Shown: piece after piece, positions 28,232 to 53,813 of the stretch
How the letters are laid out: every line of letters starts with the position of its first letter
How positions within the stretch are numbered: position 1 is the first letter of the stretch
Assembly: GCA_021814695.1 (NCBI GenBank)
Contig: JAKAHY010000005.1
Location: forward strand, 1,364 to 65,363
DNA: 64,000 nt
Source of the DNA: a bacterium
Lineage (GTDB): Bacteria > Patescibacteriota > Minisyncoccia > UBA6257 > JAGOQP01
Direction of reading: 5' to 3'
Position numbers and translations under genes: made by a program
The notes under the pieces: model-generated
The model's input: the letters and a program-made list of their open reading frames with translations, nothing else
Database searches by the model: none
What the model was told of the DNA's origin: nothing

Positions 28232-28305
28232 GGGGTCATAGTTCAATGGTAGAATTGCGGTCTCCAAAACCGCTGATCTAGGTTCGAATCCTAGTGACCC
28301 CGCCA
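28232..28305 (+). tRNA. tRNA-Trp (anticodon CCA), 3' CCA encoded
   Basis: GGGGTCATAGTTCAATGGTAGAATTGCGGTCTCCAAAACCGCTGATCTAGGTTCGAATCCTAGTGACCCCGCCA. Confidence 0.85.
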
Positions 28306-28480
28306 GTGTAAAAATAATACCCGCAGTCGTGTTATTTTTATACAAGTGAGTCCTTGGATTCGAATTGGAAAAGGGTCGGGAAAACAACGTTTTCCCGTGT
28401 TGGAAAACAGCGAAGCGTTAGAAACCGAGGGTGTCTAAGGAGAAGCGAAGCGACGACGTGAGATTCCTAGTGACCCCGCA
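28306..28480 (+). mobile_element. GC-rich tRNA-Trp trailer bounded by a direct repeat of the tRNA 3' end (integration scar or mini element)
   Basis: 28462-28480 (gattcctagtgaccccgca) repeats the tRNA-Trp 3' end (28287-28305). The segment holds an inverted T-loop-like ggattcgaa (28356-28364) and the hairpin gggaaaacaacgttttccc. Confidence 0.4.
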
Positions 28481-51905: not shown

Positions 51906-51924
51906 TGGGTGGCCTACGGGATTT
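51906..51924 (+). repeat. 19-nt direct repeat of the tRNA-His 3' end (attR-like)
   Basis: gggtggcctacgggatttg is identical to 52050-52068 (T-loop through acceptor 3' end of the minus-strand tRNA-His), 122 nt away. Confidence 0.65.
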
Positions 51925-52049
51925 GCCTCTCGCTCTGCTGAGTCTCGAGACCTTCGCAGCCTCTTCGGCAGCTGCGGCCCGCGGTTCAAATTCTATGAAG
52001 ATTTCCCAGAAAATAATAAGTTCTCCGAAGGGAGAACTTATTATTTCTT
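51925..52049 (-). mobile_element. GC-rich tRNA-His trailer between the tRNA and its 3'-end repeat (scar or mini integrative element)
   Basis: Contains an inverted T-arm-like cgcggttcaaattc (51979-51992) and a strong hairpin taagttctccgaagggagaactta (52016-52039, followed by a T-run on the minus strand) that likely terminates the tRNA-His transcript. Confidence 0.4.
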
Positions 52050-52122
52050 GGGTGGCCTACGGGATTTGAACCCGTGATAACAGTGCCACAAACTGTTGTG
52101 TTACCACTACACTAAGGCCACC
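52050..52122 (-). tRNA. tRNA-His (anticodon GTG); G-1 not encoded
   Basis: rc GGTGGCCTTAGTGTAGTGGTAACACAACAGTTTGTGGCACTGTTATCACGGGTTCAAATCCCGTAGGCCACCC; anticodon stem ACAGT/ACTGT. Confidence 0.7.
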
Positions 52123-52368: not shown

Positions 52369-52743
52369 TTATAAATCAAGTTTTCTACCCTTATAATTTA
52401 AAGCTTCTTTAATAAATTTTTTTTCGTCCCTACTGCTATGCTCTATCAAATGACAGTTAGCGCATAATAAAATACATTTCTTAATTTCGTTTTTTATAGA
52501 ATTCCAACTTTTATTTCCAACATTTCCAAGATTAAATTCTTTATTTTTTGGGTTTGTGTGGTGAAATTGGAAAGCTGATTGATTACCAGACCAACCACAT
52601 TTTTTACATTTTCCTCCAAGATATTTTATTGCAGCTAATTTTGTTCTATATCTCCTAATTTTTGTATTACAAGAACCACATCTGCTTCTGCACTTATTTT
52701 GATAATCTTTAAAATTATTTTTACAAAGCTTACATATTCGCAT
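52369..52743 (-). CDS. HNH endonuclease with N-terminal zinc fingers (homing-endonuclease-like)
   Basis: FQFHHTNP...N...N...KKCILLCANCHLIEH is a canonical HNH motif; CKLC...CGSC...CKKC zinc clusters; the region is markedly AT-rich. Confidence 0.7.
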   Translation of the reverse strand: MRICKLCKNNFKDYQNKCRSRCGSCNTKIRRYRTKLAAIKYLGGKCKKCGWSGNQSAFQFHHTNPKNKEFNLGNVGNKSWNSIKNEIKKCILLCANCHLIEHSSRDEKKFIKEALNYKGRKLDL

Positions 52744-52833
52744 ATTCTCAGTATAACACGTGTCGCTCTACCAAAAAACAGAACATTGCAAAAACGAATC
52801 CTTGTGATAATATTTGTTGGTACATTTAAATAT

Positions 52834-53200
52834 GCCGCGGTAGCTCAGTGGTAGAGCGCATCCCTAAACTCTTTGGGGCTTTTCCGAGTAATCGGGATTG
52901 AAAAATCGGGTGAAATCGGTGGAAATCTCTAAATAAATTTTATTTTTAGACAATACCGAGCCAATCCTTCGCTAAAGCTTCGGATTGCAAGCAAGCTGTA
53001 TCTAAATTTTGCATAGAATAGAAAGTTTGCCTGCCGTAGCCTTCAGCGTAGGCAGGTGTAGAGACTATCCTTTATGGAGTACTCCGGCGGTTCCGCCAGA
53101 GGAAGCGCCCGATCCCCGCCTTTTGGTGGGGAATGATATAGTCCAAAACTCTTAGTCATGGAAGAGGATGGCGTCGGGGGTTCAATTCCCTCCCGCGGCA
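52834..53200 (+). tRNA. tRNA-Phe (anticodon GAA) interrupted by a group I intron between positions 33 and 34
   Basis: 5' exon GCCGCGGTAGCTCAGTGGTAGAGCGCATCCCT (52834-52865). 3' exon GAAGAGGATGGCGTCGGGGGTTCAATTCCCTCCCGCGGCA (53161-53200). Spliced loop CTGAAGA; acceptor GCCGCGG/CCGCGGC. Confidence 0.7.
52866..53160 (+). ncRNA. Group I self-splicing intron (295 nt) in the tRNA-Phe anticodon loop
   Basis: 5' exon ends in U paired to the intron GGGG (P1 CCCU/GGGG with a U-G pair); the intron ends in G (omega-G, 53160). R-like element AGAGACTA (about 53059-53067) and S-like GATATAGTCC (53135-53144) can form P7. Candidate cctgcc/ggcagg helix at 53032-53058. Confidence 0.65.
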
Positions 53201-53206
53201 CAATAA

Positions 53207-53240
53207 AAAACATTCACATTTTAAGTGGATGTTTTTATTT
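53207..53240 (+). terminator. Terminator after tRNA-Phe
   Basis: Hairpin acattcacattttaagtggatgt followed by ttttattt. Confidence 0.5.
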
Positions 53241-53392
53241 GCTGCGGGGAGCGAGCAAACTGATTTGCTTGCGTTAGGGAATTGAACGCCGGAGCATGTT
53301 TCGGCCAGCAGGCAGAAACGCGAGGCGGCGGCTAGACCAATTCGAGCGACGGCGAGAATTGAGTCGGAGCCAATATTATCCCGCGGCACAAT
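53241..53392 (+). mobile_element. GC-rich tRNA-Phe trailer ending in a direct repeat of the tRNA 3' end (scar or mini element)
   Basis: 53379-53392 (tcccgcggcacaat) repeats 53191-53204; inverted T-arm copy gggaattgaacgcc at 53277-53290; composition far more GC-rich than the flanks. Confidence 0.4.
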
Positions 53393-53405
53393 GAACAAAA
53401 AAGCC

Positions 53406-53813
53406 CTAAAAGGCTTTTTTGTTCATCATGACCGATTCCACTAAATCCCCCACGAAAGGTAATTTATACCTTTCGCCTTTATACGCCTTAAACATAGTAA
53501 TCACCCACACCGCAAATCCAAGCAGTGAAAGCAGGCCACCGACAAACCAACCAAAAAATGGAATTATTCCTACGATAAAAGACAGGACATTGAGCGACAA
53601 AAACACGAAGATTGACTGAAGTGCGTGGAACCGAATAAAATCGTTTTTATTTTCTATAACCAGAAAAACAATCCCTCCAACCCAAGCAAACAGATAACAC
53701 AAGACCGCCTCTATATTTTCCGGCAATCCCAATGCCGTCTTCTTGTGATCGGCCTGGGATTCCTTAATTTTATCCCCGTGAACGTGGTTACTCTCTTTTT
53801 TTGTTTCGTCCAT
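53406..53813 (-). CDS. Membrane protein (hypothetical, 3-4 TM)
   Basis: 135 aa; charged N-terminus followed by hydrophobic helices. Confidence 0.45.
   Translation of the reverse strand: MDETKKESNHVHGDKIKESQADHKKTALGLPENIEAVLCYLFAWVGGIVFLVIENKNDFIRFHALQSIFVFLSLNVLSFIVGIIPFFGWFVGGLLSLLGFAVWVITMFKAYKGERYKLPFVGDLVESVMMNKKAF

What the first reader, a model, noticed from the sequence alone, without database searches (positions are those of the whole stretch)
52834..53200. tRNA-Phe(GAA) gene split by a 295-nt group I intron in the anticodon loop
Read directly, the 5' exon (52834-52865) ends ...CATCC-CU and the 3' exon (53161-53200) begins GAAGA-GGATG. Joining them gives a canonical tRNA-Phe with anticodon loop CUGAAGA and a perfect acceptor stem. 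The intervening sequence has group I hallmarks. The exon-terminal U pairs with an intron GGGG to form P1 with a U-G wobble at the splice site. The intron ends in G (53160). R-like (AGAGACTA) and S-like (GATATAGTCC) elements that could form P7 are present. Known bacterial tRNA group I introns are mainly in tRNA-Leu(UAA), tRNA-fMet, tRNA-Ile and tRNA-Arg. An intron in tRNA-Phe at position 33/34 is unusual. If this is the only tRNA-Phe gene in the genome, splicing is essential.
Basis: partly seen in the sequence, partly recalled or inferred. Interest (0 to 1): 0.7.

Follow-up and report, generated by a model that had tools for sequence, protein, structure and literature searches.

The report
Self-splicing intron inside a tRNA-Phe gene
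The phenylalanine tRNA gene in this window is split in its anticodon loop by a 295-base group I (self-splicing) intron, a real feature that standard tRNA finders miss but that was already reported for this bacterial group (Patescibacteria) in 2026.

Summary
The 5' exon is 52834-52865, the intron 52866-53160 and the 3' exon 53161-53200. Joined, the exons give a 72-nt cloverleaf tRNA-Phe(GAA) with loop CUGAAGA. Rfam's group I model matches full length (48.3 bits, E 4e-11, 1.7 bits under the curated cut-off). It places the U·G wobble of P1 exactly at U52865. One internal guide, CUCUUUGGGG, pairs with both exon ends (P1 and P10).

A core-motif scan of GTDB species genomes found 67 loci, almost all Patescibacteria. 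About 60 are tRNA-Phe(GAA) split at the same 33/34 site. P1, P10, P2 and P8 covary across this family, and three homologues score 70-83 bits.

This kind is already published. Nakagawa et al. 2026 list Phe(GAA) 33/34 in a Doudnabacteria genome, and that pre-tRNA is 79% identical to ours. Position 33/34 is also the classical tRNA-fMet intron site. The verdict is a new member of a known kind.

Two extras:
- A conserved 124-aa HNH gene sits divergently next to tRNA-Phe in many relatives. In one of them the tRNA-Phe has no intron.
- A roughly 150-nt structured element (53241-53392) ends in a copy of the tRNA's 3' end. It belongs to a widespread family linked to tRNA and tmRNA genes, with no Rfam match.

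The parts
52834..52865 (+). tRNA-Phe 5' exon (acceptor 5' strand, D arm, anticodon-stem 5' strand CAUCC, C32, U33)
52866..53160 (+). Group I intron, 295 nt, no ORF; ends in ωG at 53160
52862..52878 (+). P1 hairpin: exon CCCU plus intron AAA (52862-52868) paired with UUUGGGG (52872-52878); the U52865·G52875 wobble marks the 5' splice site
   Evidence: covariance-model alignment
52869..52878 (+). Internal guide sequence CUCUUUGGGG. GGGG pairs with the 5' exon (P1). CUCUUU pairs with the first six bases of the 3' exon, GAAGAG 53161-53166 (P10)
   Evidence: P10 of 6 bp in the window; covaries across the family
52883..52896 (+). P2, UCCGA/UCGGG with a GUAA (GNRA) tetraloop
   Evidence: all 5 pairs show changes on both sides
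52906..52912 (+). P3 5' strand UCGGGUG; pairs with 53106-53112 (CGCCCGA)
   Evidence: invariant
52916..52959 (+). P4 (52916-52921 with 52954-52959) enclosing J4/5 GAAA, P5/P5a (52926-52950) and J5/4 CAA
52961..53056 (+). P6 (CC/GG) with a roughly 90-nt peripheral extension (hairpins 52963-52986, 52987-53030, 53031-53055), shared with L018, L021, L026 and L052
53063..53067 (+). P7 5' strand GACUA (inside the R-like AGAGACUA); pairs with UAGUC at 53139-53143 (inside the S-like GAUAUAGUCC)
53068..53102 (+). Two hairpins lying between the P7 5' strand and the P3 3' strand (53068-53078 and 53082-53102), in the P7.1/P7.2 position typical of subgroup IA
   Evidence: read directly; the subgroup was not scored
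53106..53112 (+). P3 3' strand CGCCCGA
53113..53132 (+). P8, UCCCCGCC/GGUGGGGA with loop UUUU
   Evidence: all 5 counted pairs show changes on both sides
53139..53143 (+). P7 3' strand UAGUC
53144..53160 (+). Short 3' tail with no P9 hairpin. GUCAU pairs with AUGGC of the 3' exon (the 3' strand of the anticodon stem). Ends in ωG
53161..53200 (+). tRNA-Phe 3' exon (G34 A35 A36 G37 A38, anticodon-stem 3' strand GGAUG, variable loop, T arm, acceptor 3' strand, A73; CCA is not encoded)
52369..52743 (-). 124-aa HNH-motif ORF, transcribed divergently, starting 90 nt upstream of the tRNA. A conserved neighbour of tRNA-Phe in relatives; its link to the intron is unproven

Best explanation
This is a functional tRNA-Phe(GAA) gene of a Patescibacteria (CPR) bacterium, interrupted between U33 and G34 by an ORF-less group I intron. 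The precursor is transcribed as one RNA.

Inferred splicing mechanism, from the established group I pathway:
- A free guanosine bound in the P7 pocket attacks after U52865.
- The guide then holds the start of the 3' exon (GAAGAG) in P10.
- The terminal G (53160) enters the same pocket.
- The freed 3' OH of U33 joins to G34, giving a mature tRNA with loop CUGAAGA.

The anatomy and its conservation are shown here. Catalysis is inferred. If this is the genome's only tRNA-Phe gene, as is usual in this phylum, splicing is essential.
For: - Exact exon and intron boundaries and a cloverleaf for the joined exons.
- Full-length RF00028 match at E 4.2e-11, with the model's U·G pair on U52865.
- Homologous introns in L005, L041 and L001 score 82.7, 78.7 and 70.2 bits against a gathering score of 50.
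- 67 genomes carry the same core, and about 60 of them have it in tRNA-Phe(GAA) at 33/34 with U-1 and ωG.
- P1 and P10 follow the anticodon-stem sequence and position 37. Examples are GGACU/GGUCC, GCCCU/GGGGC and GGAUU/GAUCC for P1, and GAAGAG/CUCUUU against GAAAAUC/GAUUUUC for P10. Mean P1 is 4.8 bp and mean P10 is 5.95 bp, against 3.0 and 3.9 bp when exons are swapped between members.
- 98.7% of the cells in P2, P3, P4, P6, P7 and P8 pair across 59 sequences, against 32-43% when the partners are slid. All 10 pairs of P2 and P8 show compensatory changes.
- The window's pre-tRNA is 79% identical, over ungapped aligned columns, to the published Doudnabacteria pre-tRNA-Phe. [quoted passage not shown]
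Against: - The Rfam score is 1.7 bits below the curated gathering score, probably because of the large P6 and P7.1/7.2 insertions.
- P3, P4, P6 and P7 never vary in the alignment, so they give no covariation evidence. Part of that invariance is ascertainment, because the search pattern fixed P7 and the P3 3' strand.
- There is no P9 hairpin.
- No RNA data or splicing assay exists for this sequence or for any Phe intron.
- G37 is unusual for a bacterial tRNA-Phe (my own knowledge), although it is shared by a whole sub-lineage and by an intronless relative.
Confidence: 0.9

Rival explanations
1. The intron is a dead relic. This copy would be a tRNA-Phe pseudogene, with the working tRNA-Phe encoded elsewhere in the genome.
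For: The RF00028 score is just under the gathering threshold. There are unusually large peripheral insertions. Only 64 kb of the genome is visible.
Against: Every core helix and both splice-site pairings are intact. The exons make a perfect cloverleaf. No other tRNA-Phe lies in the window. Complete Patescibacteria genomes usually have a single tRNA-Phe, including the one whose only copy carries this intron.
Confidence: 0.05
2. The intron and the neighbouring HNH gene (52369-52743, minus strand) form a two-part mobile unit. A free-standing homing endonuclease would cut intronless tRNA-Phe genes and so spread the ORF-less intron, as in the 'collaborative homing' described for a cyanophage psbA intron (from my own knowledge).
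For: - The ORF has an HNH motif (Pfam 22.4 bits; PHROG HNH endonuclease E 1.6e-24).
- Weaker homologues (34-47% identity) map, by coordinates, inside the long related introns of L010, L031 and L033. The 2026 paper reports HNH homing genes in tRNA-Asn introns of this phylum.
- The HNH gene lies divergently, about 70-100 nt from a split tRNA-Phe in L001, L004, L008, L009, L052, L308, L311/L312 and L313, while the outer neighbours differ.
Against: In GCA_018061145.1 (L309, with L310) an intact, 71% identical HNH gene sits next to an intronless tRNA-Phe whose loop and stem (CCCCU|GAAGAGGG) nearly match the insertion site. The family is very uniform: the 120 listed hits are 68-76% identical and about 124 aa long. 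The ten homologues whose position was examined all lie beside tRNA-Phe. This looks more like vertical inheritance of a resident gene than like a selfish element. Most intron-bearing loci show no adjacent HNH match in the sequence fetched.
Confidence: 0.15
3. The insertion is not a ribozyme. It would be removed by proteins, like an archaeal bulge-helix-bulge intron, or it is an unrelated mobile insertion that happens to sit in the anticodon loop.
For: None found. Considered only because default tRNA finders do not call the gene.
Against: There is a full-length match to the group I model with the correct P1 wobble. The group I core is supported by covariation, and P1 and P10 covary with the exons. 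I did not test for a bulge-helix-bulge motif at the boundaries. From my own knowledge, bacteria lack the splicing endonuclease.
Confidence: 0.01

Closest known systems
Group I intron at 33/34 of tRNA-Phe(GAA) in Candidatus Doudnabacteria GCA_016699995.1 (Nakagawa et al. 2026, mSystems, PMC13011429, Table 1 and supplementary table)
   Same: Same tRNA, same anticodon loop CUGAAGA, same insertion site and same core blocks (AAUCGGGUGAA, UAGACAAU, CCGAGCCAA, GGUGUAGAGACUA, AGCGCCCGA, AUGAUAUAGUCCAAAA). 79% identity over aligned columns. It matches my search pattern.
   Different: The window's intron is 295 nt against 211 nt. It has a roughly 90-nt P6 extension and a two-hairpin insert between P7 and P3' where the published one has a single hairpin. 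The host lineage differs: the closest relatives are Parcubacteria-type MAGs labelled Yanofsky-, Wolfe-, Harrison- and Sungii-bacteria.
Cyanobacterial tRNA-fMet(CAU) group I intron ('fMet.2Ug')
   Same: Same insertion point, after U33 of the anticodon loop, with U-1 and ωG.
   Different: A different tRNA. It is classed as IC3, whereas no Patescibacteria tRNA intron was assigned to IC, and ours has inserts in the IA-type P7.1/P7.2 position.
Patescibacteria tRNA-Asn and tRNA-Asp 35/36 introns (subgroup IA; self-splicing shown in vitro)
   Same: Same phylum. Related core: my motif also retrieved long introns that ARAGORN places in Asn, Thr or Asp-type genes (L010, L031, L033). Some of these appear to encode HNH proteins homologous to the window's ORF.
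   Different: They are inserted two bases further 3' (35/36) in other tRNAs. Some carry the HNH gene inside the intron, whereas here it is outside and on the other strand.
Azoarcus tRNA-Ile and Anabaena tRNA-Leu(UAA) introns (IC3 model ribozymes)
   Same: Small ORF-less bacterial tRNA introns in the anticodon loop. P1 and P10 are built from anticodon-arm sequence, and L2 is a GNRA tetraloop (own knowledge).
   Different: They insert at 36/37 and 34/35. They belong to subgroup IC3 and have P9, which the window's sub-lineage lacks.

Membership tests
Group I intron (Rfam RF00028) | Significant full-length match to the family covariance model | tested here: met
   48.3 bits, E 4.2e-11, model 1-253/253. 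This is 1.7 bits under Rfam's curated gathering score of 50, so a gathering-threshold scan does not list it. Homologues L005, L041 and L001 score 82.7, 78.7 and 70.2 bits.
Group I intron (Rfam RF00028) | P1 helix between the 5' exon end and an internal guide, with a U·G wobble at the 5' splice site | tested here: met
   CCCU|AAA pairs with UUUGGGG. The model's U·G pair falls on U52865·G52875. P1 covaries with the anticodon stem in about 60 homologues.
Group I intron (Rfam RF00028) | Terminal guanosine (ωG) and P10 pairing of the guide with the 3' exon | tested here: met
   G53160 precedes GAAGAG, which pairs with CUCUUU at 52869-52874 (6 bp). 57 of the 60 members analysed pass my strict U-1/ωG/GAA filter. 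L055 and L063 also fit once U32 is allowed, and L027 does not. P10 covaries with position 37.
Group I intron (Rfam RF00028) | Conserved core P3-P4-P6 and P7-P8 with the P3/P7 pseudoknot topology | tested here: met
   All helices can be drawn in the window. 98.7% of cells pair across 59 sequences. P2 and P8 are fully compensatory. P3, P4, P6 and P7 are invariant and so uninformative, partly because of ascertainment.
Group I intron (Rfam RF00028) | Guanosine-dependent self-splicing | not testable with these tools
   Needs in vitro transcription and splicing, or RNA-seq.
tRNA-Phe | Cloverleaf with anticodon GAA after intron removal | tested here: met
   Fold and ARAGORN call. U20, G34-A35-A36, U59, U60 and A73 are present by direct reading. 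Their role as PheRS identity elements is from my own knowledge of E. coli tRNA-Phe.
tRNA-Phe | Charged with phenylalanine; sole tRNA-Phe of the genome | not testable with these tools
   Only 64 kb is available, with no second tRNA-Phe in it.
Group I subgroup IA (as against IC3) | Extra P7.1/P7.2 hairpins between the P7 5' strand and the P3 3' strand | tested here: inconclusive
   A 38-nt stretch (53068-53105) holding two hairpins (53068-53078, 53082-53102) lies in that position, and most relatives have one hairpin there. No subgroup covariance models were available. The paper assigns no Patescibacteria tRNA intron to IC.
Intron-associated HNH homing endonuclease | HNH nuclease motif | tested here: met
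   Pfam PF01844 at 22.4 bits (cut-off 21.4). PHROG HNH endonuclease E 1.6e-24.
Intron-associated HNH homing endonuclease | Encoded within the intron, or strictly co-occurring with it | tested here: not met
   The gene lies outside the intron on the opposite strand. In L309/L310 it accompanies an intronless tRNA-Phe.

The most novel reading that the evidence does not exclude
The tRNA-Phe gene is not only split by an intron. Its 3' end also adjoins a previously undescribed family of very small (about 100-190 nt) structured elements. [quoted passage not shown] Each starts with a stretch antisense to the T loop and T stem, and each ends with a copy of that gene's 3' end, running from C56 of the T loop to the discriminator base. 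The window holds three of them: 53241-53392, 51906-52007 on the minus strand, and 28344-28480. They could be miniature integrative elements whose folded strand imitates the tRNA attachment site, or small RNAs that mimic the acceptor/T-arm half of a tRNA. Either would be a new kind of element. A weaker novel reading is that the adjacent HNH gene is a free-standing homing endonuclease for the ORF-less intron.
Probability: 0.4. Interest if true: 0.7.

Novelty: new member of a known kind. Interest (0 to 1): 0.3.

Why it matters
For annotation, default ARAGORN and Rfam gathering thresholds both miss this gene. A genome annotated that way would seem to lack tRNA-Phe. The window adds a long-form member to a Phe-specific intron lineage that is far more widespread than the single published case suggests (at least about 60 species-level genomes). 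The compensatory changes in P1 and P10 are a clean natural data set on how a group I guide sequence follows its host tRNA.

For biology, it supports the published picture that genome-reduced Patescibacteria keep self-splicing introns in single-copy essential tRNA genes. The unexplained elements that copy the 3' ends of tRNA and tmRNA genes may be the more valuable lead for follow-up.

Tried and rejected
- Default detectors: ARAGORN and Rfam at gathering thresholds do not call the split gene. Only the E-value scan and ARAGORN with introns allowed do.
- Alternative splice registers: a 5' exon ending CUA, CUAA or CUAAA would give anticodon AAA. I rejected these because the model's U·G pair, the ωG, P10 and about 60 homologues all point to 33/34.
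- Source contig: an exact-protein look-up with GyrB found nothing, so the taxon is inferred from relatives only.
- Partner protein for the side element: clustering ORFs within about 3 kb of about 120 copies gave no family in more than 6 loci.
- Strand test for the side element: G·T against A·C mismatches came out 27 to 25, which is uninformative.
- Promoter and terminator scan: it did not flag the AT-rich hairpin-plus-T-run structures that I read after the tRNA (53209-53236) and after the element (53393-53424).
- Literature: searches for a description of the side element found nothing relevant. Williams' 2020 list of 21 intron classes is held only as an image, so I could not check whether Phe is among them.
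- Formatting failures with no result: two DNA-pattern searches, two paper searches and two paper look-ups.

Full report
**1. The observation**

- 52834-52865 is GCCGCGGTAGCTCAGTGGTAGAGCGCATCCCT: the acceptor 5' strand, D arm, anticodon-stem strand CAUCC, then C32 and U33.
- 53161-53200 is GAAGAGGATGGCGTCGGGGGTTCAATTCCCTCCCGCGGCA.
- The joined 72 nt fold into a cloverleaf with loop CUGAAGA, at -32.2 kcal/mol.

Default ARAGORN lists nine other tRNAs in the window and no tRNA-Phe. Rfam at gathering thresholds lists only those tRNAs.

**2. Is it a group I intron?**

An E-value scan of 52700-53500 against all of Rfam gives RF00028 at 52856-53165. The score is 48.3 bits against a gathering score of 50, E is 4.2e-11, and all 253 model positions align.
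- The alignment places the model's invariant U·G pair on U52865 and G52875. P1 is therefore CCCU|AAA paired with UUUGGGG, and the 5' splice site follows U33.
- The bases just 5' of that strand, CUCUUU (52869-52874), pair with the first six bases of the 3' exon (GAAGAG). This is the P10 pairing, and it fixes the 3' splice site after G53160.
- The remaining helices can all be drawn: P2 with a GUAA loop; P3 52906-52912 with 53106-53112; P4 52916-52921 with 52954-52959; J4/5 GAAA; P5/P5a; P6 with a roughly 90-nt extension; P7 GACUA 53063-53067 with UAGUC 53139-53143; two hairpins between P7 and the P3 3' strand; and P8 53113-53120 with 53125-53132.
- The 3' tail is 17 nt and has no P9 hairpin.
- The whole precursor folds much better than shuffled sequence (z = -4.9).

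**3. Relatives**

A pattern built from three core blocks (GTAGAGACTA, GCGCCCGA, GATATAGTCC) found 67 loci among 185,579 species-representative genomes. Nearly all are Patescibacteria MAGs. In about 60 of them ARAGORN finds tRNA-Phe(GAA) split at the same place.

I resolved ARAGORN's one-base ambiguity with the U-1/ωG rule. Of the 60 members analysed, 57 passed a strict filter requiring C32, U33, ωG and GAA. L055 and L063 have U32 and also fit. L027 looks degenerate. Three homologues score 70-83 bits on RF00028. The window's lower score is best explained by its extra peripheral insertions.

Two sub-lineages appear. One has A37 and a P9 hairpin with a GAAA loop. The other, which includes the window, has G37 and no P9.

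**4. Covariation**

P1 and P10 change with the host tRNA. P1 examples are GGACU/GGUCC, GCCCU/GGGGC, CGCCU/GGGC and GGAUU/GAUCC. For P10, GAAGAG pairs with CUCUUU in G37 genes and GAAAAUC pairs with GAUUUUC in A37 genes.

| Helix | Mean length, own exons | Mean length, exons swapped between members with different anticodon stems |
|---|---|---|
| P1 | 4.8 bp | 3.0 bp |
| P10 | 5.95 bp | 3.9 bp |

(All.)

On a 59-sequence alignment, the 30 pairs of P2, P3, P4, P6, P7 and P8 are paired in 98.7% of cells. With the partners slid by one to three columns the figure is 32-43%. None of 500 shuffles reached the observed covariation score. All ten pairs of P2 and P8 show changes on both sides.

P3, P4, P6 and P7 never vary, so they neither support nor contradict the structure. 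Part of that invariance comes from my search pattern, which fixed P7 and the P3 3' strand.

The intron's 3' tail also tends to pair with the 3' strand of the anticodon stem. The mean is 4.8 bp against 3.5 bp when swapped, and the window has 5 bp.

**5. What is already known**

- Williams' 2020 preprint names the classical bacterial classes Leu.3Ug, Arg.5Ug, fMet.2Ug and Ile2.5Ug. The site after U33 is therefore the classical tRNA-fMet site. He reported 17 further classes, but that table is held only as an image.
- Nakagawa et al. 2026 (PMC13011429) list 'Phe (GAA) 33/34' in Doudnabacteria GCA_016699995.1 and give the sequence. It matches my pattern and is 79% identical to the window's pre-tRNA over 272 ungapped columns.
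[quoted passage not shown] It found no Patescibacteria tRNA intron in subgroup IC, and it found HNH homing genes only in long tRNA-Asn introns.

The window's intron is therefore a new, longer member of a published kind. What is new here is the breadth of the Phe lineage and its P1/P10 covariation.

**6. Host and context**

The window is a bacterial chromosome at about 41% GC. It carries rplK, nusG, secE and gyrB (named from reading the translations) and ten tRNA genes. The nearest relatives of the locus and of the HNH protein are MAGs labelled Yanofsky-, Wolfe-, Harrison-, Giovannoni- and Sungii-bacteria and Paceibacterota. The host is therefore inferred to be a Parcubacteria-type member of Patescibacteria. 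The exact contig was not found.

**7. The HNH gene**

52369-52743 (minus strand) encodes a 124-aa protein with an HNH motif. Homologues at 62-68% identity occupy the same divergent position next to a split tRNA-Phe in L001, L004, L008, L009 and L052, even though the gene on the far side differs (tRNA-Arg, tRNA-Val and others). Weaker homologues map, by coordinates, inside the long related introns of L010, L031 and L033.

The protein family has 381 clusters at E ≤ 1e-5. The 120 listed are all 68-76% identical to the query. I examined four of them on longer contigs:
- Three are beside a split tRNA-Phe (L308, L311/L312, L313).
- One (L309, with L310; GCA_018061145.1) is beside an intronless tRNA-Phe whose loop is CUGAAGA. 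Its HNH protein is intact and 71% identical to the window's.

In the examples examined, the gene therefore follows the tRNA-Phe locus rather than the intron. A homing role remains possible but is weakened, and I give it about 0.15.

**8. Side finding: a structured element after the tRNA**

After the tRNA comes a hairpin with a T run (53209-53236). Then comes a GC-rich 152-nt stretch, 53241-53392. It folds very stably (z = -5.65). It ends with the same 14 nt (TCCCGCGGCACAAT) as the tRNA gene plus its trailer: 53191-53204 matches 53379-53392. No Rfam family matches it.

Many are from 0.1-µm groundwater filtrates.
- In 81 of 125 motif hits, a tRNA gene on the same strand ends 14-103 nt upstream. 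These tRNAs carry about 30 different anticodons.
- In three further cases the upstream gene is a tmRNA gene.
- In 71 of 83 cases, an exact copy of that gene's 3' end, 10-33 nt long, lies about 40-60 nt past the motif. It usually starts at C56 of the T loop.

*Architecture*, in order:
1. often the acceptor 5' strand;
2. a 9-bp hairpin;
3. GGGAnUUG, which is antisense to T-loop positions 56-60 and the T-stem 3' strand;
4. AA(C/A)GCCGGAGC;
5. a hairpin;
6. GCGAGGC;
7. a long irregular hairpin;
8. CAAnUCCC..., the copied 3' end.

*Support for the structure.* Covariation supports these helices. 88% of cells pair, against 73% in shuffles and 33-47% when slid, and 17 of 27 pairs show changes on both sides. 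The pair opposite T-loop position 59 is U-A 15, C-G 12, A-U 7, G-C 2, and never unpaired.

*Copy number and other types.* A covariance model finds one copy in the window (81 bits) and seven in the 67 genome loci. Other core types follow the same layout.
- In the window, tRNA-Trp (28232-28305) is followed by one at 28344-28480.
- tRNA-His (minus strand) is followed by one at 52007-51906.
- The closely related loci L001 and L019 carry different core types at the same tRNA-Phe site.

*Other observations.* No protein gene recurs nearby. One 3.5-kb contig (L218) has a 141-nt terminal overlap by my reading of its ends, so it may be circular. It carries the element without any tRNA gene, and its ORFs hit only phage families of unknown function. 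The strand test was uninformative.

*Reading.* I read these as either miniature integrative elements whose folded strand imitates the tRNA attachment site, or small RNAs that mimic the tRNA top half. I could not decide between the two, and I found no description of them.

**9. Verdict**

- The mechanism is inferred with high confidence from the anatomy, the family-wide covariation and the published assays on related introns.
- Novelty is low: a new member of a known kind.
- Interest in the finding itself is modest. The neighbouring elements linked to tRNA 3' ends deserve a separate look.

Noticed in passing
window 53241-53392 (+); covariance-model core 53270-53384; repeat 53191-53204 = 53379-53392: A 152-nt highly structured element lies just downstream of tRNA-Phe and ends in a 14-nt copy of the tRNA's 3' end. 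It belongs to a large family (the metagenome scan hit its 120-locus limit) found after tRNAs of about 30 anticodons and after tmRNA genes. Each member ends in a copy of that gene's 3' end, starting in the T loop, and has an internal stretch antisense to it. The helices are supported by covariation. There is no Rfam match and no recurrent neighbouring protein.
   Followed up: yes
window 28344-28480 (+), downstream of tRNA-Trp 28232-28305: A second element with the same layout but a different core (GGGUCGGG...CCCGUGUYGGAA...AAACCGAGGGU). It ends in a 15-nt copy of the tRNA-Trp 3' end. The same core type follows tRNA-His in L001 and L019 and tRNA-Phe in L019.
   Followed up: partly
window 51906-52007 (-), downstream of tRNA-His 52050-52121 (-): A third, shorter element (about 100 nt). 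It begins GAAUUUGAAC and ends in a 19-nt copy (CAAATCCCGTAGGCCACCC) of the tRNA-His 3' end. Three of the ten tRNA genes in this window therefore carry such an appendage.
   Followed up: partly
window 52369-52743 (-); L309 2332-2407 and 2501-2875: The conserved 124-aa HNH protein gene is a fixed divergent neighbour of tRNA-Phe in the ten relatives examined. This includes one genome (GCA_018061145.1) whose tRNA-Phe has no intron. Weaker homologues map inside long related tRNA introns in L010, L031 and L033.
   Followed up: yes
L218 (metagenome contig OBEQ012715008.1, 3654 nt): The contig has a 141-nt terminal overlap by my reading of its ends, so it may be a 3.5-kb circle. It carries the type-1 element with a tRNA-like 3' end but no tRNA gene. 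Its small ORFs match only PHROG families of unknown function. It may be a free form of the element family.
   Followed up: partly
L001 2411-2563 against L019 1238-1380: Two syntenic genomes (about 82% nucleotide identity) carry different core types of the tRNA-linked element at the same site after tRNA-Phe. This suggests turnover at a fixed attachment site.
   Followed up: partly
window 53164 (tRNA position 37); family alignment A1: The tRNA-Phe has G37 rather than the A37 usual in bacteria (my own knowledge). A whole sub-lineage of the intron-bearing genes shares G37, as does the intronless L309 gene. G37 covaries with a C in the intron's guide sequence.
   Followed up: partly
L010, L031, L033 (genome loci): The same intron core occurs in 550-600-nt introns that ARAGORN places in tRNA-Asn, Thr or Asp-type genes. 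HNH tblastn matches fall within these introns by coordinates. They are probably the 35/36 tRNA-Asn introns with HNH homing genes described by Nakagawa et al. The boundaries were not re-derived here.
   Followed up: no
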